Source of the DNA: a virus
Lineage: Duplodnaviria; Caudoviricetes
Strand: one strand, 5' to 3'
Length of the DNA: 28,143 nt
IMG/VR virus record: IMGVR_UViG_3300009602_000064
Location: 1-28,143 of that record
Shown: in pieces, positions 10,513 through 22,359 of the stretch
Layout: each line of letters starts with the position of its first letter
Numbering within the stretch: the stretch's first letter is position 1
Position numbers and translations under genes: made by a program
The notes under the pieces: generated by a model
Database searches by the model: none
The model's input: the letters and a program-made list of their open reading frames with translations, nothing else
What the model was told of the DNA's origin: nothing

Positions 10513-10943
10513 GCCTGCCCAAATTGCTGCATCACTTGCTGGGCCGCTTGCGCGCCCATTCCAGTTCCCATTCCCGGTCCTGGCATCGGTCCGGGCATCG
10601 GTCCCGGCATTAGCGGCATTCCAGGCATGGGCATCCCAGGCATCCCAGCCATAGGCATTCCTGCGGGCATTGGTTGCGGCAATGCCATCCCAGGGGTCGG
10701 AATTGCAGGAATGCCCATGCCGAGATCTTCGGGCGGAGCGACCGGCATCATCATCGGTGCCGGACCCGGCAGCGGTATGGGTATTTCTTCGACGGTTTCG
10801 GGCAGTTCTTTTTCCACGCCACTGTAGTCCCCAGGTGTCTCGGTGGTTTTCACCGTTACCTTGGCCATCAACACGCCGCCCATCTCGGCCGCGTCTTCCG
10901 GGGCAAAATCAAAACCATCGTCCATGCCGTAATCAATCGCCAT
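10509..10943 (-). CDS. Pro/Met/Gly-rich low-complexity protein
   Basis: 144 aa coupled to terL (TGATG) and to ycgN; GMP/PGPM repeats. Confidence 0.6.
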   Translation of the reverse strand: MAIDYGMDDGFDFAPEDAAEMGGVLMAKVTVKTTETPGDYSGVEKELPETVEEIPIPLPGPAPMMMPVAPPEDLGMGIPAIPTPGMALPQPMPAGMPMAGMPGMPMPGMPLMPGPMPGPMPGPGMGTGMGAQAAQQVMQQFGQA

Positions 10944-12274
10944 CAGATGCGCGGCTCCGTGTGATTTCGCTCATCAAAATCATGTATTTCCCACAGGTCG
11001 TCAAGACATGGTTTTTTCAGCATTTCTTCTTGCCAGTCCGTTTCGGGTTCTTTGGGCTTCAAATTACGGTAGGCAATCGCCAGATATCGGAAAGAATCAG
11101 AGGCATGAGAAGCCCAGTTATGTAGCGGCGTCTTGCGAAATACGCGCTTAACATCGTCCCATTCGCGCTGATAAGAGCGCAGCGCGTTCAAGCCCTGCTC
11201 GCAATTTAGCTCATCGAAATAACAATGCTGCAATAGCAACCGGGCGGCGTTAATCCCGTCCGCGATCTTATGCGAGGGCACGATCTTGGGCTTGCGGCCC
11301 ATATTAACAAGCGTCTCGGCGCGGGTTCTGCCGGTGCCAAGCTCACGGACCTTGGCATCATGGGGCAGCCAGTCGTCGCCGTACCAGTAACCTTTCTCCT
11401 GCATCACCTTGACGTAATGCTCAAGTCCTACGTTGTTGTGTTCGTAGTAATCAATGACACGCACTTCGCCCATAGTGACTTGAAAAAACCATAAAGCGCA
11501 CGAATCGCTGATGCCAAGATCCCAAGCAACATGCACGGGCAGCGCTTCATCATACTCAACCCGGCAAATACGCCCTTCCTTGTCCGCGTCATCCACTAAT
11601 CCCCCGTAATAACTACCCTTGATCGCTGCCGTCCAAGAACATTCAAACTCCTGTTGATACTCATCATCCCCCATCTCGCGCTTGGCAGCGTCAAGCTCGC
11701 TGGGCTCGATCACATCCGTCTCGGAGGCCCGGTACATGGCGCTGTGCCACTCGCTGTCGTCAGCGGCATTCTCATAAAGCCGCCAGAAATGATTGCGGCC
11801 CTTGGGCGTGCCGATAAATATCGCCCAACCCTGGCGATCCACCAGCGCAGGACGAACAATCTCGCTCCATACCCGAGGCGACATATCGGCATACTCATCC
11901 AATACAACGCCATCAAGATAAATTCCCCTCAACGCATCGGGATCATCCCCGGCACCGGCCAAACGAATGCGGCTGCCATTGATCAAATCAACCCGTAGCT
12001 CGGACTGATTAATCTTGGTGCCGGGCAAATCGCGGGCATAATAAACCAGATAATCCCACGCAACCTGCTTGGCCTGACGATAATACGGCGCGAGATACAT
12101 AAACCGCCCATCATGCCGCTCGGTCTTGATCTCCAACGCCTTCGCCAATAGCTCCGTCACCGCGTAGACGGACTTGCCCCAGCGACGGTGGCTCACGCAA
12201 ATCTTGAACCTCTTGGCATTCCGGTGCAGGTCAAGCTGCTGGGGCCGGGGCGTATAAGGAATCTCAATATCCAC
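10943..12274 (-). CDS. terL: Terminase large subunit
   Basis: Walker A HRRWGKS, Walker B VVLDEYA, FIGTPKG coupling motif, RNase H nuclease AWDLG...SHASDSFRY. Confidence 0.95.
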   Translation of the reverse strand: MDIEIPYTPRPQQLDLHRNAKRFKICVSHRRWGKSVYAVTELLAKALEIKTERHDGRFMYLAPYYRQAKQVAWDYLVYYARDLPGTKINQSELRVDLINGSRIRLAGAGDDPDALRGIYLDGVVLDEYADMSPRVWSEIVRPALVDRQGWAIFIGTPKGRNHFWRLYENAADDSEWHSAMYRASETDVIEPSELDAAKREMGDDEYQQEFECSWTAAIKGSYYGGLVDDADKEGRICRVEYDEALPVHVAWDLGISDSCALWFFQVTMGEVRVIDYYEHNNVGLEHYVKVMQEKGYWYGDDWLPHDAKVRELGTGRTRAETLVNMGRKPKIVPSHKIADGINAARLLLQHCYFDELNCEQGLNALRSYQREWDDVKRVFRKTPLHNWASHASDSFRYLAIAYRNLKPKEPETDWQEEMLKKPCLDDLWEIHDFDERNHTEPRI

Positions 12275-15881: not shown

Positions 15882-16123
15882 AAAATCTACGACGGTTCGT
15901 CGACTACACCAGACCTGTCGGTGACGACATCCACAGTCCGATCATGATCTACAGCACCAGCGAGGACGGCGACCATTATTCGGAGGTGATCTGTGAGTTA
16001 TGCAGCGCATCGCTCGATGCGGTGATGTTCGCGCACCCGTCGATTGATCGCGACGGACGAGCGTATTCAGAATCGTGGTGCGGGGCTAACGCCGCGCCGT
16101 ACGTGATTAGGCGCAACAACTAG
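15878..16123 (+). CDS. Hypothetical protein
   Basis: 81 aa in the operon, contains CELC. Confidence 0.55.
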   Translation: MKNLRRFVDYTRPVGDDIHSPIMIYSTSEDGDHYSEVICELCSASLDAVMFAHPSIDRDGRAYSESWCGANAAPYVIRRNN

Positions 16124-16137
16124 GGGGGAGGGGCAGG

Positions 16138-16290
16138 ATGACGAAATATGACCCGATCACAGGAACTCGACTTCAGCGCCTGCTATTCGTTTCGCTGATT
16201 CCCGGCCCAGCAAAGCGCCGCCACGCGGCCAACGTACTGGGATTCTTGGTCATTCTTGGGCTTGGCGCTATCGCTATGTTCGTGTTGTGA
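16138..16290 (+). CDS. Small membrane protein (50 aa)
   Basis: GGAGGGG SD; MTKYDPITGTRLQ...VLGFLVILGLGAIAMFVL, hydrophobic C-terminus. Confidence 0.55.
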   Translation: MTKYDPITGTRLQRLLFVSLIPGPAKRRHAANVLGFLVILGLGAIAMFVL

Positions 16291-16301
16291 TGGAGAACAA
16301 A

Positions 16302-16655
16302 ATGAGAAAACAGGACGGGCAGACATCTGGAATCGGATTCCCGCTAAGCAGACGGCTCACTCTTCTGGAGAGGACCATGGACGACGCGATCAGAGAAGAT
16401 CCGACGCTGTCGTCCATGTCACCGCATATGGACCTCACCGGAGCGATTCACTTTCCAACCGACGCCCAGCAGAAGGCCGATTATCGAGAAATCGATGACG
16501 ACGGCGTCGCGGAATCTCTCGGGGATGACCTGATGGCGACGCTAAATCGCCGCGCCGTCAGCAACAGGGCCATTCAGCGGCATATCGTTGAGCGGCTTCG
16601 GGACTGGCTGGAAGTCAGAACCTGTGCCGAGTCGAATGGGGAGCCGAATGGCTGA
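16302..16655 (+). CDS. Hypothetical protein
   Basis: GGAG-6 nt-ATG at 16302; in the operon. Confidence 0.55.
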   Translation: MRKQDGQTSGIGFPLSRRLTLLERTMDDAIREDPTLSSMSPHMDLTGAIHFPTDAQQKADYREIDDDGVAESLGDDLMATLNRRAVSNRAIQRHIVERLRDWLEVRTCAESNGEPNG

Positions 16656-16911
16656 CTTTAAGGTCACCAATCACTGCGACGAATGTGATGGCGAGGGAAT
16701 TATCGAGCGCCGCACGTCAGTGGATTCCTTTCGCGCCAACCCATGCGAGTGGTGCGATGGGTACGGGGAAACCATCGACCAAGTCGAGTACGAAAGCGTA
16801 GACGAAGTGCGCGACGATTATCCTCGCGCAACATCGATACGACGCATTCCCAGCGCCAATGGCGCAGTGCTGGAAATGCCTGTTGAAAACAGCGCCCCAA
16901 CGCGGAGGTAA
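16648..16911 (+). CDS. DnaJ-type zinc-finger (CxxCxGxG) protein
   Basis: CDECDGEG and CEWCDGYG; GGGAG SD before ATG 16648. Confidence 0.7.
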   Translation: MADFKVTNHCDECDGEGIIERRTSVDSFRANPCEWCDGYGETIDQVEYESVDEVRDDYPRATSIRRIPSANGAVLEMPVENSAPTRR

Positions 16912-16915
16912 AAAA

Positions 16916-17557
16916 GTGACGAATATTATCATAGCGGCCCCGAGAATTCGGGAGCTGCATCTGGGAATCACCGGCAAAAGTGGCTTGATTTGCCACAATT
17001 TCTCCGAGAAATCGCGTTTGCAAATGCAGGAGACCCAGGCCAAGGCGGCGAAGGGCCCAAAGATCGCCCGCGATCCAGAGGCCGAGTACGAGGGTGCGTT
17101 CTACAGGCTGGAAGGGGGCGGCTACGGATTCCCCTGCGCGGGGTTCAAAAAGTCCGCCATCCGGGCGGCCAAGATGCTCGACGGCGTGAACATGACGGAC
17201 GCCAGACAGATGTTTTTTATCTCGGCTGACGACCGGGACACCACGGGCGTAGATTGTGTGCGGATTCACGGCACACCGGAGATGCGAACGGACACGGTTC
17301 GGCTTGCCAAGGGTGTGGCCGATCTACGCTATCGGCCAGAGTTTCGGGATTGGTCTTGTACGCTCAAAATCAGCTACGACGAAGACCTGATCAGCGGTTC
17401 TCAGATCGTGAATCTGTTCATGCGAGCGGGTTTGCAGGTCGGCGTTGGTGATTGGCGTCCCGAAAAGGATGGCGATTTCGGGCGCTTTCTTGTCGGTGAA
17501 CAAGACGTTCTTGAGACCGGCCTGGAGACAGTCGAGAAAGAGAAAGCTGCTGCTTGA
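16916..17557 (+). CDS. Solitary Cas7/RAMP-like (RRM-fold) protein, Vipr-like effector
   Basis: GTG 16916 after GGAGG; N-terminal strand ITGKSGLICH, FPCAGFKKS (RAMP 'IPgssfKG'-like), RYRPEF..W, and a C-terminal Gly-rich loop AGLQVGVGDWRPEKDGDFGRF; no other cas genes in the window. Confidence 0.72.
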   Translation: MTNIIIAAPRIRELHLGITGKSGLICHNFSEKSRLQMQETQAKAAKGPKIARDPEAEYEGAFYRLEGGGYGFPCAGFKKSAIRAAKMLDGVNMTDARQMFFISADDRDTTGVDCVRIHGTPEMRTDTVRLAKGVADLRYRPEFRDWSCTLKISYDEDLISGSQIVNLFMRAGLQVGVGDWRPEKDGDFGRFLVGEQDVLETGLETVEKEKAAA

Positions 17558-18030
17558 TGGCAGCACGGGAAAGCAAGATTGCGGCGGCTCTGGGCGAGAT
17601 TGCCCAGGGCCAACCGCTCACCCCCGATGCCGTGGTTGAAGTGGCCACGGACCCTGATCATGTATTGCACGATAGCTTTGAGTGGGACGACACAACCGCC
17701 GGTCACAGCTACCGCGTATGGCAAGCGCGGCGCTTGATTCGCGGCGTGAAAATTGTCACTCCCGAAGGCCAGAAGACCTCAAGATTCGTCTCGGTGAAGA
17801 TCGGAGCGCAACGCCAATACGAAGACATCCGTGTGGTCGTACAAGACGCCGACATGTGGACGGCGGTGTTGACCGACATGGCCCAGCGGTTTGGTGAGTA
17901 TGAGACCACGCTTAACGGCTTGGTTTCGATGGCTCAGACTGAAGAGCGCGGAGAAACCGCGCAAGAGCTACAGCAGCGGGTTACACGTTTGCGAAACCGG
18001 TTGGAAGAAGCGGCACAGCTACCGCTATGA
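17557..18030 (+). CDS. Conserved phage protein coupled to the RAMP-like gene
   Basis: TGATG overlap; LTPDAVVEVATDPDHVLHDSFEWDD...YRVWQARRLIR; C-terminal coiled coil. Confidence 0.7.
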   Translation: MAARESKIAAALGEIAQGQPLTPDAVVEVATDPDHVLHDSFEWDDTTAGHSYRVWQARRLIRGVKIVTPEGQKTSRFVSVKIGAQRQYEDIRVVVQDADMWTAVLTDMAQRFGEYETTLNGLVSMAQTEERGETAQELQQRVTRLRNRLEEAAQLPL

Positions 18031-18035
18031 CCGTT

Positions 18036-18349
18036 TTGACAAGGTGGGGCGAGGTCGGGCTTGTCGAGGTCGGGCCAGGATGGCGTGGCGAGGCGAGGCA
18101 GTCGAGGGGGGCGTGGTATGGCAAGGCGCGACAGGGTTAGGCACGGCGAGGCAGGCGTGGCTTGGAATTGCGGGGCACGGTCCGGCAAGGCTCGGCGAGG
18201 CGAGGTGTGGCAAGGCAGTCGAGGAGGGGCGAGGCAAGGCGCGGCGCAGCGAGGCGCGGCGCGGCGAGGCGCGGTGCGGCAGTCACGGTTCGGCGAGGCG
18301 TGGTAAGGCGAGGCTGGGCGTGGCTGGGCAAGGTCAGGCGAGGCGAGGT
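18036..18349 (+). repeat. Array of 58 NN-GGY pentamers in five units separated by 4-nt AGTC/AGGC punctuation
   Basis: Parsed by hand: units start at 18036, 18100, 18153, 18217 and 18281 (64, 53, 64, 64, 69 nt). Example: AGTC ACGGT TCGGC GAGGC GTGGT AAGGC GAGGC TGGGC GTGGC TGGGC AAGGT CAGGC GAGGC GAGGT. Ends at AATTTTT. Confidence 0.93.
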
Positions 18350-18356
18350 AATTTTT
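18036..18356 (+). ncRNA. Putative guide-RNA precursor (vrRNA-like) from the GGY/NN array
   Basis: Fills the intergenic space of a co-oriented operon downstream of the RAMP-like gene; 5-nt period is not codon-compatible; transcription is inferred. Confidence 0.6.
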
Positions 18357-18367
18357 AAGGGGAAGTA

Positions 18368-19117
18368 GTGATGGAAATTATTAAAATGCTGGGCGGGACG
18401 CTGACGTTCCGCCCCGGCAACCACCGATACGAGTGGAACAACGAGAAAGTCGACCTCAGCGTGTCAGCCGTGGCGTCGAGTTATCCTCTGGCATTCGGCG
18501 CGGCTAGCGGCTGGGCCGCAAAAGTTATTCGCGAGGAGCTTCTGCGATCCAACGGCCCCGGCGATGACAGGTTGGCGTGGGCCAAAGACGTTTGCAAAGC
18601 GCCATATAGAGCCACCAAGTCCGCCGGACATGTCGGCACCGAGGTTCATCGCTATGTTGAAGATCTTGCCCACGGCCTGAATCCTGAGCTATCGAACGAC
18701 GAGGACATTGCCAAATGTCAAACCGGCATCGGCGAATGGTTTGCGTCCAATATTGCGGAGGTTATCGATATTGAGCGCCGACTCTATTCGCTGCGCTGGC
18801 AGGTGGCCGGAACGTGCGACATGGTGGCCCGTTTAAACGATGGGAAAACGTACGTTTTGGACTGGAAAGGAGTCACCGATCTCAGCGCCAGCATCAAAGC
18901 GGGCCACATCGGCCAATTAACGGCCTACCGACATATGCTGGGCGAAACGGGCGAGCAGATTGACGGTTGCCTGCTGGTGCGGTTTTCCCGCGCTACCGGC
19001 GAGGTCGAGGCGACGCTGCTTCGCGATCACGATGCCAATGTCGCGGCGTTCGCGGCGGCGCTGCATCTGGCCCGCTATGCGGCTCAAACAGAAATCTTTG
19101 GCGCGGTTGTTTCTTAG
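18368..19117 (+). CDS. PD-(D/E)XK exonuclease
   Basis: GTEVH...ERRLYS...VAGTCDMV...VLDWKG...QLTAY motifs. Confidence 0.8.
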   Translation: MMEIIKMLGGTLTFRPGNHRYEWNNEKVDLSVSAVASSYPLAFGAASGWAAKVIREELLRSNGPGDDRLAWAKDVCKAPYRATKSAGHVGTEVHRYVEDLAHGLNPELSNDEDIAKCQTGIGEWFASNIAEVIDIERRLYSLRWQVAGTCDMVARLNDGKTYVLDWKGVTDLSASIKAGHIGQLTAYRHMLGETGEQIDGCLLVRFSRATGEVEATLLRDHDANVAAFAAALHLARYAAQTEIFGAVVS

Positions 19118-19132
19118 CCTCTCAACCGTGCC

Positions 19133-19170
19133 GGTGCGGGGGTCCGGCCAAGCCCCCGCGCCACCTTTTT
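19133..19170 (+). terminator. Rho-independent terminator-like hairpin
   Basis: GGTGCGGGGG...CCCCCGCGCC followed by ACCTTTTT. Confidence 0.5.
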
Positions 19171-19196
19171 CCGGCCAATCAGGAGACAATTAAATA

Positions 19197-19712
19197 ATGG
19201 CGGCAAACATCATCACGATGGACGTTGAGCGCATCGATCAGGGGCAGGGCAACGCCCCCGGTACGATCACCGGCATCGACGTAGACTCCGGCGAGCGAGT
19301 TTCTCTGAAGGGTTGGGCGGATACGCTTGCTGACTTCCGACCGGGCAAAACTTTCCAGTTCCAGTGGTATCTCGGCAAGGAATATCGCGGCGAACAGGAC
19401 ATGCTTGTGTCCAAACGCGGCGATGTTAAGGAAATTTTCGGCGCTGTCGCCTCGCTCGACAAATCAAATGGGTCTCAGAGCCCCTCAGACGACCTCCCAC
19501 CGGCCTTCTACGAAAAGAAGGCACCTGTGCCCCCCGCGCCCCCTATACCCGCTCCAACGACGCCACAGGGCGTTATGACGGGATCCCCCACGATCAAAGA
19601 TCGCACGATTACTTGCTTGGCGGTGATGAAATCAGTCATTGAATCGGGCGGCACCGAGGCCGATTTCGACCGCTGGATGGCTAAGCTCGACGCCACGGTG
19701 TCCAGAAGATGA
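19197..19712 (+). CDS. Hypothetical protein, possible OB-fold ssDNA-binding protein
   Basis: AGGAG SD; beta-rich N-terminus, Pro-rich linker; between the exonuclease and RusA. Confidence 0.5.
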   Translation: MAANIITMDVERIDQGQGNAPGTITGIDVDSGERVSLKGWADTLADFRPGKTFQFQWYLGKEYRGEQDMLVSKRGDVKEIFGAVASLDKSNGSQSPSDDLPPAFYEKKAPVPPAPPIPAPTTPQGVMTGSPTIKDRTITCLAVMKSVIESGGTEADFDRWMAKLDATVSRR

Positions 19713-20197
19713 TTCCGTTTTTCCATCTCACGATCCAGGGGACGCCCGTCGCGAAGGGGCGTCCCAGAGTGGCACAGAGCGGGCACGTTTACACGCCGGA
19801 GAAAACGCGCAACTACGAGCAGCGAATTAGAGAGATGACGGCCATTACGATGGCCGGTAGGTCGGCAACCAAGAGCGCGGTTATCGTTCATGTCGCGGCG
19901 ATCTTTGAGCCCCCGCCAAGCGCCCCGCGCACCCGGAAAGCGGCGCTCTTGAAGAGCGGCACGCACGCGATCAAACCGGACCTCGACAATGTCGTGAAGG
20001 CCGCGATGGACGGGATCTGCTTTGAAAATGGTGCGATCCGCGACGACAAGCAAGTCATTGAGTTATGCGCGTTTAAGCAGTACGGCGAGAACGCTTGCTT
20101 GATGCTCGACGTTTTCGAGGCCGAGAGCGTCGTGGAGCGATTCTCGAATCGCTGGCGAGCCTGGGAAAGCGGCGATGTTGCGGTGAGTCCCATATGA
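19709..20197 (+). CDS. rusA: RusA-family Holliday junction resolvase
   Basis: GTPVAKGRPR...YTPEKT...KPDLDNVVKAAMDG...DDKQV. Confidence 0.9.
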   Translation: MIPFFHLTIQGTPVAKGRPRVAQSGHVYTPEKTRNYEQRIREMTAITMAGRSATKSAVIVHVAAIFEPPPSAPRTRKAALLKSGTHAIKPDLDNVVKAAMDGICFENGAIRDDKQVIELCAFKQYGENACLMLDVFEAESVVERFSNRWRAWESGDVAVSPI

Positions 20198-20706
20198 GAT
20201 ACGGGGCGATTCTGGCAGATCCGCCGTGGGACTTTCGGGTCTGGTCCGACAAGGGAAAGGGGCGCTCACCCAGCTACCCAACAATGGTGTTCGAGAGTCT
20301 ATTTTCGCTGCCGGTCGCGGAGAAAGCGGCCCCAGACGCCGCCCTGTTTCTTTGGACGGTCGATTCCCATCTCCAGACGGCGCTCACATTGATAGATGCC
20401 TGGGGATTTATCTACAAAACCATAGCGTTCATATGGGTCAAGCCCTCCATCGGCATGGGATACTGGTCACGCAAGGAAGCGGAAGTGTGCCTGCTGGCGA
20501 CGCGGGGGAAGCCAAAGCGTTTACACGCTGACGTGCGGCAGGTGATCTCTGCGCCACGGCGGGAGCATTCGCGAAAGCCTGATCAGATTTATGCGAGCAT
20601 CGAACGCCTTGTGGGCGGTCCATATCTGGAGATGTTTGCCCGCCAACGATGGCCGGGATGGGATCAATACGGCGATCAGGTCGATAAATTCGAGGTAGCG
20701 GAGTGA
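20194..20706 (+). CDS. MT-A70 family N6-adenine methyltransferase
   Basis: ATG 20194 (ATGA overlap); ILADPPW, LFLW, WGFIYKT, GMGYWSR, HSRKPD, LEMFAR. Confidence 0.9.
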   Translation: MRYGAILADPPWDFRVWSDKGKGRSPSYPTMVFESLFSLPVAEKAAPDAALFLWTVDSHLQTALTLIDAWGFIYKTIAFIWVKPSIGMGYWSRKEAEVCLLATRGKPKRLHADVRQVISAPRREHSRKPDQIYASIERLVGGPYLEMFARQRWPGWDQYGDQVDKFEVAE

Positions 20707-20981
20707 AGGACGAACAGATCAGCCGACTCGCCCCGAGCTACGATGGGTCGATAAAGGCGCGCTGTCCCCAGTGCAGTGCCAAGCGGAAGAAAAAAACCGA
20801 TACGCCTTTGTCGATAACGCGCCAAGGGTCAGAAGTCGTTTGGTACTGTCACCATTGTCAGTTTAAGGGATTCTACGATGAGGCTAGACGCTCGTACGAT
20901 TCAGTGGGCAGCGCGAAGAAAAATCAGCGCCGAAACCCTGCGCGCGATGAACGCTGGCGGCGATCTCATACTGTTTGGTGA
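20703..20981 (+). CDS. Primase zinc-binding domain, stand-alone
   Basis: CPQCS...PLSI...WYCHHCQFKG as in Twinkle/T7 gp4 zinc-binding domains. Confidence 0.7.
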   Translation: MKDEQISRLAPSYDGSIKARCPQCSAKRKKKTDTPLSITRQGSEVVWYCHHCQFKGFYDEARRSYDSVGSAKKNQRRNPARDERWRRSHTVW

Positions 20982-22359
20982 TCGCAAACTCCCGGCCATA
21001 ACTTTCAACTATCTTGATGCTTCAGGCGAAACCGTCAACTGGAAGGCGCGGCCGCTTACCCAAAAAGACTACCGCCAGAAACCCGGTGGAACTCAGCAAT
21101 TCTTCAATCAAGCAGCGGTGCTTAATGGGCCTTTGGAAGAGGTCTATGTCACTGAAGGCGAAATGGACGCGCTTGCGCTGGTCGAGGCGGGAGTCCCCGC
21201 CCATTCCGTTCTCAGCGTGGTTGGCGGCGCACCGGCCAAGGCTACAGAAGACGCTCCCAGCGCCAAGCGTTACGAATATATCGGGGCGGCCTTGGCGGCT
21301 GGGCTGGACCGCTGCCCAAGGTTCATCTTGGTAACCGATAGCGATAGTCCAGGGCGGCATTTGCGCGCCGATTTAGCCTCCATCCTGGGGGCTGTTAAAT
21401 GCCACTGGGTGGATTTCCCCGACACGATCAAAGACGCCAACGACTTGCTGGTGGCGTGGGACGCAGAAAGACTCCATGCCTATTTACGCGCAGAGGTTCA
21501 GGAGTTTCCAATCCAGGGCGTCTACCGCCTTTCCCAGATTCCCGAGCCACCGGCCCTGGTTCTTTGGCGACCGGGATGGGCAGAATTCGAAAGCCGAATA
21601 CATCTATCGCCAACCTGTCTCAGTGTATTATCGGGCTGGCCCGGTCACGGGAAAAGCCATCTCAGCCAGCAGCTATGGGCTCAGATCGTCCGGCAGTACG
21701 ACATAAAAGTCGCGCTGATGAGCATGGAGACTCGCGAAAAACCGTTCGTCAGAAGAAACCTCAGAAGCGCCTATCACGGCAAACTAGAAACGGCGATGAC
21801 CGATTCGGAGAAGGATCAGGCAGATGCCTGGATCGAGGATCATTTCCTGTTTTTGCACCATGAGAGGAACTCCCCCGAATGGGGATGGATCATGGAAACA
21901 GTCAACGACTGCCATGCTCGCTTTGGCGTCTCGGCTGTCAGCATAGATCCATTCAACATGATCATTCCAACCTTTGACCGGCGACGCCAGACCGAGACGG
22001 AATGGATTGGCAGATGTCTGGACGACTGCACCTATCTATCGAAAGCGTGTAATTTGCACCTTCAAATCATCGCCCACCCGGCCAAGCCAATCGGGGCCGG
22101 GGTTAGAGATCCGATCACATATTCAAGCATCGCGGGCTCGCAGCACTGGGCCAATAAGAGCGATCAGATTCTGTCCATCCATCGCAATGCCTTTCAAGAC
22201 GATGACGGGACCAGAAACACCGAGGCTCGCCTGATCGTTCACAAATCCCGCTACGAAGAGCTTGGCTATCCCTGTGAAATCGCCATGAAGCTCGCTTTGG
22301 ATACTGGCTGCTTCCGCTGCACGGAATACGATACGGGCGGTTGGCGGGGGCGCGTTTAG
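20878..22359 (+). CDS. Twinkle/T7 gp4-like TOPRIM primase plus SF4 helicase
   Basis: VTEGEMDAL, DSDSPG, KDANDLL (TOPRIM); GWPGHGKS Walker A, IDPFN, IAHPAK, IAGSQHW. Confidence 0.9.
   Translation: MRLDARTIQWAARRKISAETLRAMNAGGDLILFGDRKLPAITFNYLDASGETVNWKARPLTQKDYRQKPGGTQQFFNQAAVLNGPLEEVYVTEGEMDALALVEAGVPAHSVLSVVGGAPAKATEDAPSAKRYEYIGAALAAGLDRCPRFILVTDSDSPGRHLRADLASILGAVKCHWVDFPDTIKDANDLLVAWDAERLHAYLRAEVQEFPIQGVYRLSQIPEPPALVLWRPGWAEFESRIHLSPTCLSVLSGWPGHGKSHLSQQLWAQIVRQYDIKVALMSMETREKPFVRRNLRSAYHGKLETAMTDSEKDQADAWIEDHFLFLHHERNSPEWGWIMETVNDCHARFGVSAVSIDPFNMIIPTFDRRRQTETEWIGRCLDDCTYLSKACNLHLQIIAHPAKPIGAGVRDPITYSSIAGSQHWANKSDQILSIHRNAFQDDDGTRNTEARLIVHKSRYEELGYPCEIAMKLALDTGCFRCTEYDTGGWRGRV

What the first reader, a model, noticed from the sequence alone, without database searches (positions are those of the whole stretch)
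18153..18216. Unit 3 dinucleotides read as NNx codons spell the terminase motif VFIGTPK
Seen: U3 begins GT TT AT GG AC CC AA. As codon positions 1-2 with the third base skipped this is V-F/L-I/M-G-T-P-K/N. This phage's terL at 11801-11821 (minus) reads ATA TTT ATC GGC ACG CCC AAG (IFIGTPK): 13 of 14 specified bases match, in frame, from the first pentamer of the unit. The last five dinucleotides do not match. Inference: the guide targets a conserved terL motif of related phages through a gapped code that ignores wobble positions, blocking synonymous escape. The partial self-match may be tolerated or regulatory. Caveat: found by eye, and pentamers 2-3 (TTGGA, ATTGC) deviate from GGY.
Basis: partly seen in the sequence, partly recalled or inferred. 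Interest (0 to 1): 0.9.

Follow-up and report, generated by a model that had tools for sequence, protein, structure and literature searches.

The report
VIPR guide spells rival terminase motif
This stretch is one guide of a phage VIPR array (a CRISPR-related RNA-guided gene silencer described in 2026), and its first seven two-letter units match a conserved motif of phage DNA-packaging genes while skipping every third base, so it likely aims at rival phages, but its last five units fit no packaging gene well and no exact target was found.

Summary
U3 (18154-18217) decodes to GT TT AT GG AC CC AA TC GA GA GT AA. Its first seven dinucleotides match this phage's terL in frame at 13/14, but the whole guide matches only 14/24.

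The array is a staggered vrRNA array of a VIPR system: the upstream gene hits SUSP1 Vipr (E 2e-8 to 1e-10). The wobble-skipping code and the anti-synonymous-escape argument are already published.

The self-match alone is chance-level (115 of 400 array shuffles). The match to the terL family motif is not: dinucleotides 1-7 hit about 2,100 IMG/VR stretches, 103 of 121 sampled are terL, and the chance per array is about 1e-4 before correcting for post-hoc choice.

However, 102 of those 103 diverge at dinucleotide 8. The best terL found scores 20/24, which is unremarkable given the first seven, and no exact target was found.

Likeliest reading: the guide is aimed at a rival phage's terL, and the 3' mismatches spare its own gene. 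Self-regulation is unsupported. This is a new member of a known system with a plausible, unproven target.

The parts
16916..17557 (+). vipr gene (RAMP-like effector, 213 aa; the frame is open from 16859, start chosen by alignment to homologues)
   Evidence: Only significant PDB sequence hit is SUSP1 Vipr 36pp_D, E 2.2e-8 and 1.3e-10 with alignment A1; phrog_4652; R140, W180, R181 invariant in 33 sequences
17557..18030 (+). accessory vap-like gene (157 aa)
   Evidence: phrog_15946; 45% identity over 65 aa to the gene after vipr in locus L155; directly follows vipr. Vap number not assigned
18031..18042 (+). conserved array leader containing TTGACA (18036-18041)
   Evidence: Same leader before the array in 7 of 11 close loci checked, 3 of them the same phage; function not tested
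18043..18351 (+). staggered GGY/NN vrRNA array, five units, phase shifting by -1 at GGCA junctions
   Evidence: same architecture in relatives
18043..18100 (+). unit U1 (one pentamer is 1 nt short at 18078-18081)
   Evidence: the matching unit in L059 is in phase throughout
18101..18153 (+). unit U2 (second pentamer is 1 nt short in a G run)
18154..18217 (+). unit U3, the guide in question: 12 GGY/NN pentamers plus GGCA junction
   Evidence: identical in L001, L004, L056, L057
18218..18281 (+). unit U4 (low-complexity GA/GC guide)
   Evidence: no convincing target
18282..18351 (+). unit U5, last unit, followed by TTTTT
   Evidence: shorter 5' end in L004/L056; no clear target
11786..11821 (-). 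own terL site under U3: codons 152-163; codons 152-158 match 13/14, all twelve match 14/24
10943..12274 (-). terminase large subunit gene
   Evidence: PF03237 E 6e-10; phrog_2 E 1e-44

Best explanation
U3 is one guide unit of a phage VIPR array whose first seven dinucleotides match codon positions 1-2 of a conserved terminase motif, and it likely directs the neighbouring Vipr protein to silence the terL gene of a rival phage, while its five 3' dinucleotides, which mismatch this phage's own terL, would spare the phage itself. Steps: (1) shown: vipr-vap-array anatomy and the 14/14 match to the V-form terL motif of other phages; (2) published for SUSP1 and inferred here by homology: the RNA is expressed, cut at the staggered junctions, coated by one Vipr per pentamer, and pairs NN with DNA skipping every third base, blocking transcription; (3) inferred: the real rival carries a terL variant whose codons 8-10 fit the guide better than the common G-x-N-x-F form. 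Candidates are a VFIGTPKS-F/Y-N subfamily (17-18/20 over dinucleotides 1-10) and a VFIGTPKP-D/E-A subfamily (18/20, 20/24). The last two dinucleotides are likely filler in this clade.
For: Vipr homology. Dinucleotides 1-7 hit about 2,100 IMG/VR stretches, 103 of 121 sampled are terL by HMM, and the skipped base varies freely. Of 1,788 seven-NN windows from 388 related guides only U3's first window hits one of 804 strongly conserved strings in 80 terL loci; shuffle mean 0.010, about 1.3e-4 for this array's 23 windows. The same test on vipr loci recovered two guides with near full-length targets in rival VIPR genes (21/22, 19/20) and lower self scores (17/22, 15/20), so the test finds real targets. 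The 24 closest terL relatives all have I (mismatch), while 27 of 56 motif-bearing relatives match 14/14. In the close clade the last two NN are low-entropy (2.2 and 3.0 bits) and homologous guides keep NN1-7 (0.86-0.95) better than the 3' end (0.54-0.77). Listed strain differences in U3 fall in scaffold positions and NN9. SUSP1 filaments resolve first at the 3' end (720927), and a six-unit natural guide exists (759431).
Against: 102 of 103 sampled terL hits have GG at NN8 (guide TC) and score 15-17/24. No exact hit for NN2-12 in metagenome or GTDB contigs. The 25 viral hits to NN1-8 and 9 to NN4-11 reach at most 20/24. The 20/24 terL is unremarkable: 27 of 129 clade tails reach >=6/10 against the same 40 terL tails. 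The two calibrated guides match almost to their 3' end, unlike U3. The 5'-versus-3' sign test is only 15 vs 6 families, p=0.08. Chance motif hits do occur: 70 of 120 GTDB hits are one unrelated bacterial family matched on the opposite strand. No target was found for any other close-clade guide. terL was chosen after the fact. No expression or binding data.
Confidence: 0.55

Rival explanations
1. The terL likeness is chance. U3 has a full-length target that is not a terminase and is absent from the collections searched.
For: 115 of 400 array shuffles give a 13/14 self-window and wrong skip rules do too. Calibrated guides match nearly end to end. The same string hits an unrelated conserved bacterial motif in 70 of 120 GTDB hits.
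Confidence: 0.2
2. U3 is a relic: a former terL guide whose 3' part was overwritten by generic GA/GT/AA pentamers through slippage or recombination, perhaps favoured because a complete guide would also silence the phage's own terL. It no longer silences anything.
For: U3's 3' half resembles parts of U1 and U5 (repeat families D6, D7). U1 and U2 carry 1-nt phase slips. NN9 varies among strains, and tails expand and contract in relatives. The own terL continues with the same G-R-N-H-F as many V-form terL genes, so a complete guide to them would match self almost fully.
Against: The 5' part recurs in other strains in 4 of 4 runs laid, which suggests retention. The tail fits the P-D/E-A subfamily profile better than all 129 close-clade tails (0 of 129 reach its score; family chosen from the best hit, so biased).
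Confidence: 0.15
3. Seven 5' dinucleotides suffice in this staggered-array clade, so U3 binds a very wide set of terL genes including the phage's own, where binding would be tolerated or would delay packaging.
For: A six-unit natural guide is published. The single self mismatch in NN1-7 is guide G against target T, a possible wobble pair (inference). 3' ends are relaxed in this clade.
Against: Full self score 14/24 is below random best. No self-target at >=80% in the clades tested in the discovery paper. SUSP1 assembly proceeds from the 3' end. Calibrated guides score lower on self. No integrase was recognised in the 15 and 12 ORFs scanned or by eye in the extra G001 region, so there is no evident lysogenic state in which self-silencing would be harmless.
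Confidence: 0.1

Closest known systems
VIPR systems (Vipr + vap + vrRNA), bioRxiv 10.64898/2026.04.26.720920; staggered arrays of its fig. S18 (whole main text read in six parts; supplement PDF searched for four terms; figures and Data S3/S4 not seen)
   Same: Two-gene vipr-vap operon in a phage; GGY/NN pentamer repeats, 9-14 per unit; units offset by 1 nt; 1-nt skip that falls on the wobble base
   Different: No SUSP1-type 3' tail between units; A/G-rich terminal dinucleotides; the word terminase does not occur in the main text or supplement PDF; type I-VII not assigned here
SUSP1 type II VIPR: structure 10.64898/2026.04.26.720927 (parts 1-2 of 6 plus term passages read), PDB 36pp
   Same: Thumb arginine and G-loop Asp-Trp-Arg align (R138, D177, W178, R179 of SUSP1 with R140, D179, W180, R181 here; my count)
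   Different: Only the C-terminal ~60 residues align by sequence; 3' pseudoknot tail absent; direction of assembly in this clade unknown
SUSP1 vrRNA4 on the satellite recombinase and vipr-targeting guides, 10.64898/2026.10.15.759431 (parts 1-2 of 8, section 17 and term passages read)
   Same: A short guide reading codon positions 1-2 of a conserved catalytic-region motif; self scores lower than rival scores
   Different: There the six-unit guide matches about 89% over its whole footprint; here only 7 of 12 units match, and the candidate is a packaging ATPase gene of other phages

Membership tests
VIPR | Vipr RAMP-like protein with thumb and G-loop | tested here: met
   SUSP1 Vipr E 2.2e-8 and 1.3e-10; key residues conserved; AlphaFold model pLDDT 76; no fold comparison was obtained
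VIPR | vap gene next to vipr | tested here: met
   17557-18030, phrog_15946, homologous to the gene after vipr in L155
VIPR | Flanking non-coding tandem GGY/NN repeats, 9-16 per vrRNA | tested here: met
   five units between vap and the exonuclease gene; arrays found in 124 loci
VIPR | No CRISPR array or cas operon at the locus | tested here: met
   no Rfam match in the window; no CRISPR-type repeats in 16500-20500; the downstream exonuclease has only a weak Cas4-like PHROG hit
VIPR | Natural targets follow the 1-nt skip rule at >=80% NN match | tested here: inconclusive
   met for two guides of distant relatives (21/22, 19/20); U3 best terL 20/24 is chance-level given NN1-7; no skip-1 excess for 130 close-clade guides in local loci
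VIPR | vrRNA expressed, processed and bound by Vipr; RNA-guided repression | not testable with these tools
   needs small-RNA sequencing and reconstitution
VIPR type II (SUSP1, P. fulva) | Each vrRNA ends in a conserved ~40-nt structured tail | tested here: not met
   units abut at GGCA junctions with a -1 phase shift; this is the published staggered architecture instead
VIPR types I-VII | Type set by Vipr phylogeny and vap family | not tested
   reference sets (Data S4) not available

The most novel reading that the evidence does not exclude
In this marine staggered-array VIPR clade, specificity sits in the 5' seven or so dinucleotides and the 3' end is largely filler, the reverse of SUSP1. 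U3 is then a broad-spectrum guide: one 14-base, wobble-blind code covering an estimated ~1,800 terminase genes in IMG/VR, which blocks DNA packaging in rival phages and possibly throttles the phage's own terL.
Probability: 0.12. Interest if true: 0.65.

Novelty: new member of a known kind. Interest (0 to 1): 0.3.

Why it matters
The code and the wobble logic are known, so the main value is a testable natural guide. If U3 does silence rival terL genes, it adds DNA packaging to the known VIPR target list; no terminase target appears in the text of the VIPR preprints searched, though their target tables were not visible. It also gives a clean test of an open question the papers leave: which end of a vrRNA sets specificity and self/non-self discrimination (the structure paper has no occurrence of 'seed' or 'mismatch'; the competition paper applied no seed rule). 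U3 matches rivals and self at the 5' end and differs at the 3' end, so one reporter series separates the models.

Tried and rejected
Self-match as evidence: rejected, chance-level.
Exact full-guide target (NN2-12): none in metagenome or GTDB contigs.
NN4-11 in viral contigs: 9 hits, none terL by eye, best 20/24.
Host target: 120 of about 150 GTDB hits to NN1-8 plus a degenerate NN9; no terL by eye; best 22/24 (L334, a Bacteroidetes MAG, over a start codon) judged chance; 70 are one bacterial family on the opposite strand.
A better terL: 117 motifs from 120 proteins, 34 from 36 further cluster members and 120 from 150 representatives give at most 20/24.
Targets for U1, U2, U4, U5 in local loci, the window and G001: none convincing. 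U5 core scan: 120 of about 160 hits, no coherent in-frame family.
A conserved guide of relatives L063/65/69: no viral hit.
Six-NN conserved-string test in the close clade: 2 of 223 guides against a shuffle mean of 0.54, one being U3.
No shuffled-pattern scan of IMG/VR was run; the 18 of 121 non-terL hits served as background.
No RNA holder listed. No sigma-70 promoter called in 16000-19300. No Rfam match. No fold comparison was obtained.
Dropped rows: one spurious L249 motif row and 24 loci whose motif my pattern did not recognise.

Full report
OBSERVATION. Unit 3 runs 18154-18217 and decodes to GT TT AT GG AC CC AA TC GA GA GT AA. The phage's terL (10943-12274, minus) carries ATA TTT ATC GGC ACG CCC AAG at codons 152-158, 13 of 14 read bases, the only site in the window within two mismatches. 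Over all twelve dinucleotides the site scores 14/24 (pattern 1 2 2 2 2 2 2 0 0 1 0 0). The motif lies 28 residues after the start of the VLDE Walker B; calling it the ATPase coupling motif is recalled, not from a call.

WHAT THE ARRAY IS. It is a VIPR locus. The gene at 16916-17557 has one significant PDB sequence hit, SUSP1 Vipr (E 2.2e-8; 1.3e-10 with a 33-sequence profile). By my count on the alignment, SUSP1's R138, D177, W178, R179 correspond to R140, D179, W180, R181 here. A vap-like gene follows, then five GGY/NN units that shift phase by one base at GGCA junctions, matching the staggered arrays described in the discovery paper's fig. S18 legend. That paper establishes the 1-nt skip rule, reports that skips fall mostly on the wobble base, argues that this defeats synonymous escape, uses >=80% NN match to call targets and found no self-targets in the clades tested. 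A later preprint shows the same wobble logic for a six-unit guide on a satellite recombinase, and lower self scores for anti-VIPR guides. The window is most of a roughly 33 kb (my estimate) marine phage genome. No integrase was recognised in the ORFs scanned (15, 12) or by eye in the extra G001 region.

IS THE SELF-MATCH MORE THAN CHANCE? Not alone. 52 of 1000 shuffles of U3 and 115 of 400 shuffles of the whole array give a seven-NN window at >=13/14 somewhere in the window. Skips of 0 and 3 also give 13/14, and one 14/14. The full-length self score (14/24) is below the best random site (15/24) and below the best site of 996 of 1000 shuffled guides.

IS THE terL FAMILY MATCH MORE THAN CHANCE? 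Probably. The seven-NN pattern hits about 2,100 IMG/VR stretches. Of 121 sampled, 103 are terL by an HMM built here, with all four bases at the skipped positions of four-fold codons. Enrichment over background is partly circular, because the pattern was picked for spelling a terL motif, so I asked how often guides do this. In 80 terL loci (the best 80 of 597 confirmed), 804 gapped strings occur with >=10 wobble variants. Of 1,788 windows from 388 related guides only U3's first window hits one; shuffles give 0.010 on average, about 1.3e-4 for this array's 23 windows. Allowing for the other conserved genes that could have been noticed, I estimate about 1e-3. The same test on vipr loci found two guides in distant relatives with clear targets in rival vap (21/22; self 17/22) and vipr (19/20; self 15/20) genes, 5 windows against a shuffle mean of 0.19. 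Among terL relatives the motif was recognised in 56 of 80 loci. The 24 closest (74-100% identity) all have I and score 13/14; 27 of 56, all among the more distant, score 14/14.

THE PROBLEM: THE 3' FIVE. All 56 relatives and 102 of 103 sampled terL hits have GG at position 8 where the guide has TC, and full scores are 15-17/24 for the 102. Exact NN1-8 gives 25 viral hits, 7 of them terL by eye with S-F/Y-N after the motif (17-18/24; 17-18/20 over NN1-10). One terL, L462, scores 20/24. It belongs to a subfamily whose loop is one residue longer ([V/T/L]FIGTP[K/E]P[D/E]A..F), and every guide position occurs somewhere in that subfamily. U3's tail fits its profile better than all 129 close-clade tails (0 reach its score) and all but 1 of 324 tails overall, but the family was chosen from the best hit. 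On the unbiased best-hit measure, 27 of 129 tails do as well. No member exceeds 20/24. Exact NN2-12 is absent from metagenome and GTDB contigs. In GTDB, 70 of 120 hits are one unrelated bacterial family matched on the opposite strand, a reminder that an eight-NN string can land on a conserved motif by chance. The two calibrated guides match nearly to their 3' ends, unlike U3.

ARE 3' ENDS INFORMATIVE IN THIS CLADE? Partly not. In 152 close-clade units the last two NN carry 2.2 and 3.0 bits against about 3.8 inside, mostly AA and GA; in 236 distant units the effect is small. In 27 families of homologous guides, identity is 0.86-0.95 at NN1-7 and 0.77, 0.64, 0.54 at the last three, but the sign test is 15 vs 6, p=0.08, and ungapped comparison inflates 3' differences. 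Contigs from four public runs cover U3; the differences the tool lists are three scaffold positions and NN9 (GA to GT or TT by my reading), none in NN1-8, though several differences near piece ends are not listed. The TT variant would extend the match to the S-F-N terL subfamily by one codon, which is suggestive only. So filler plausibly explains two of the five unmatched dinucleotides, not all five.

MECHANISM. Shown: anatomy, homology, and the 14/14 family match. Published for SUSP1 and inferred here: one Vipr per pentamer holds GGY and presents NN; target DNA is read two bases in three; binding blocks transcription from either strand; protomers resolve first at the 3' end. Inferred: U3 has the sense-strand sequence of terL, so it would pair with the template strand of a rival's terL and cut packaging. 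The single self mismatch in NN1-7 is guide G against T, which could wobble-pair, so self-tolerance would rest on NN8-12, where self matches 1 of 10. That fits 3'-first assembly and the lower self scores of the calibrated guides. I put this at 0.55, chance at 0.2, a decayed relic at 0.15, and 5'-only binding with self-regulation at 0.1.

NOVELTY. A new member of a known kind. A search for VIPR + vrRNA + terminase returned one paper, where the passages shown use the word only in satellite-calling methods; the discovery text and its supplement PDF have none, nor has the Evo-PIN preprint (term passages only). Their target tables were not visible and may list terminase targets. Earlier notes of this scan describe the same code and similar motif-spelling guides; they are leads, not support.

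VERDICT. Observation confirmed; interpretation partly supported; interest 0.3.

Noticed in passing
L164:11165-11220 (+): A guide in a distant relative's array matches the vap-like gene of other VIPR phages at up to 21/22 (L155, L159) and its own at 17/22; vap as a target was not seen in the passages read.
   Followed up: partly
L171:10619-10668 (+): A guide matches the vipr G-loop codons of other phages at up to 19/20 (L179), its own at 15/20, and this window's vipr at 16/20 (17463).
   Followed up: partly
window 18031-18042: Leader with TTGACA directly after the vap stop, kept before the array in 7 of 11 close loci checked; looks like a -35 box but no -10 was called.
   Followed up: partly
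window 18078-18081 and 18106-18109: U1 and U2 each have a 4-nt pentamer (1-nt loss) that breaks the register; the matching U1 in L059 is intact. These guides may be damaged.
   Followed up: partly
close-clade arrays L058-L148: Homologous guides sometimes differ by changes that are synonymous or conservative under NNx reading (CT/TT, AG/CG, TT/TA), hinting at sense-frame coding targets not present in the loci fetched.
   Followed up: no
window 18169-18191: The middle of U3, including the rare TGC scaffold, resembles the middle of a different guide family (L065, L069 and an abundant contig), suggesting recombination between units.
   Followed up: partly
L105-L108 arrays: 3' ends of units expand and contract as GA or AA pentamer runs between strains; arrays hold up to about 12 units.
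   Followed up: partly
window 16588-16911, 19709-20197, 20095-20706, 20878-22359: The VIPR operon sits in the early/replication module: DnaJ-type zinc-finger gene upstream; exonuclease, RusA, MT-A70 methyltransferase and primase-helicase downstream.
   Followed up: no
phage collection: Vipr homologues occur in 152 cultured phage records, including Gordonia and Mycobacterium phages (best hits about 40% identity), annotated as hypothetical in the 20 rows shown; these are tractable test systems.
   Followed up: no
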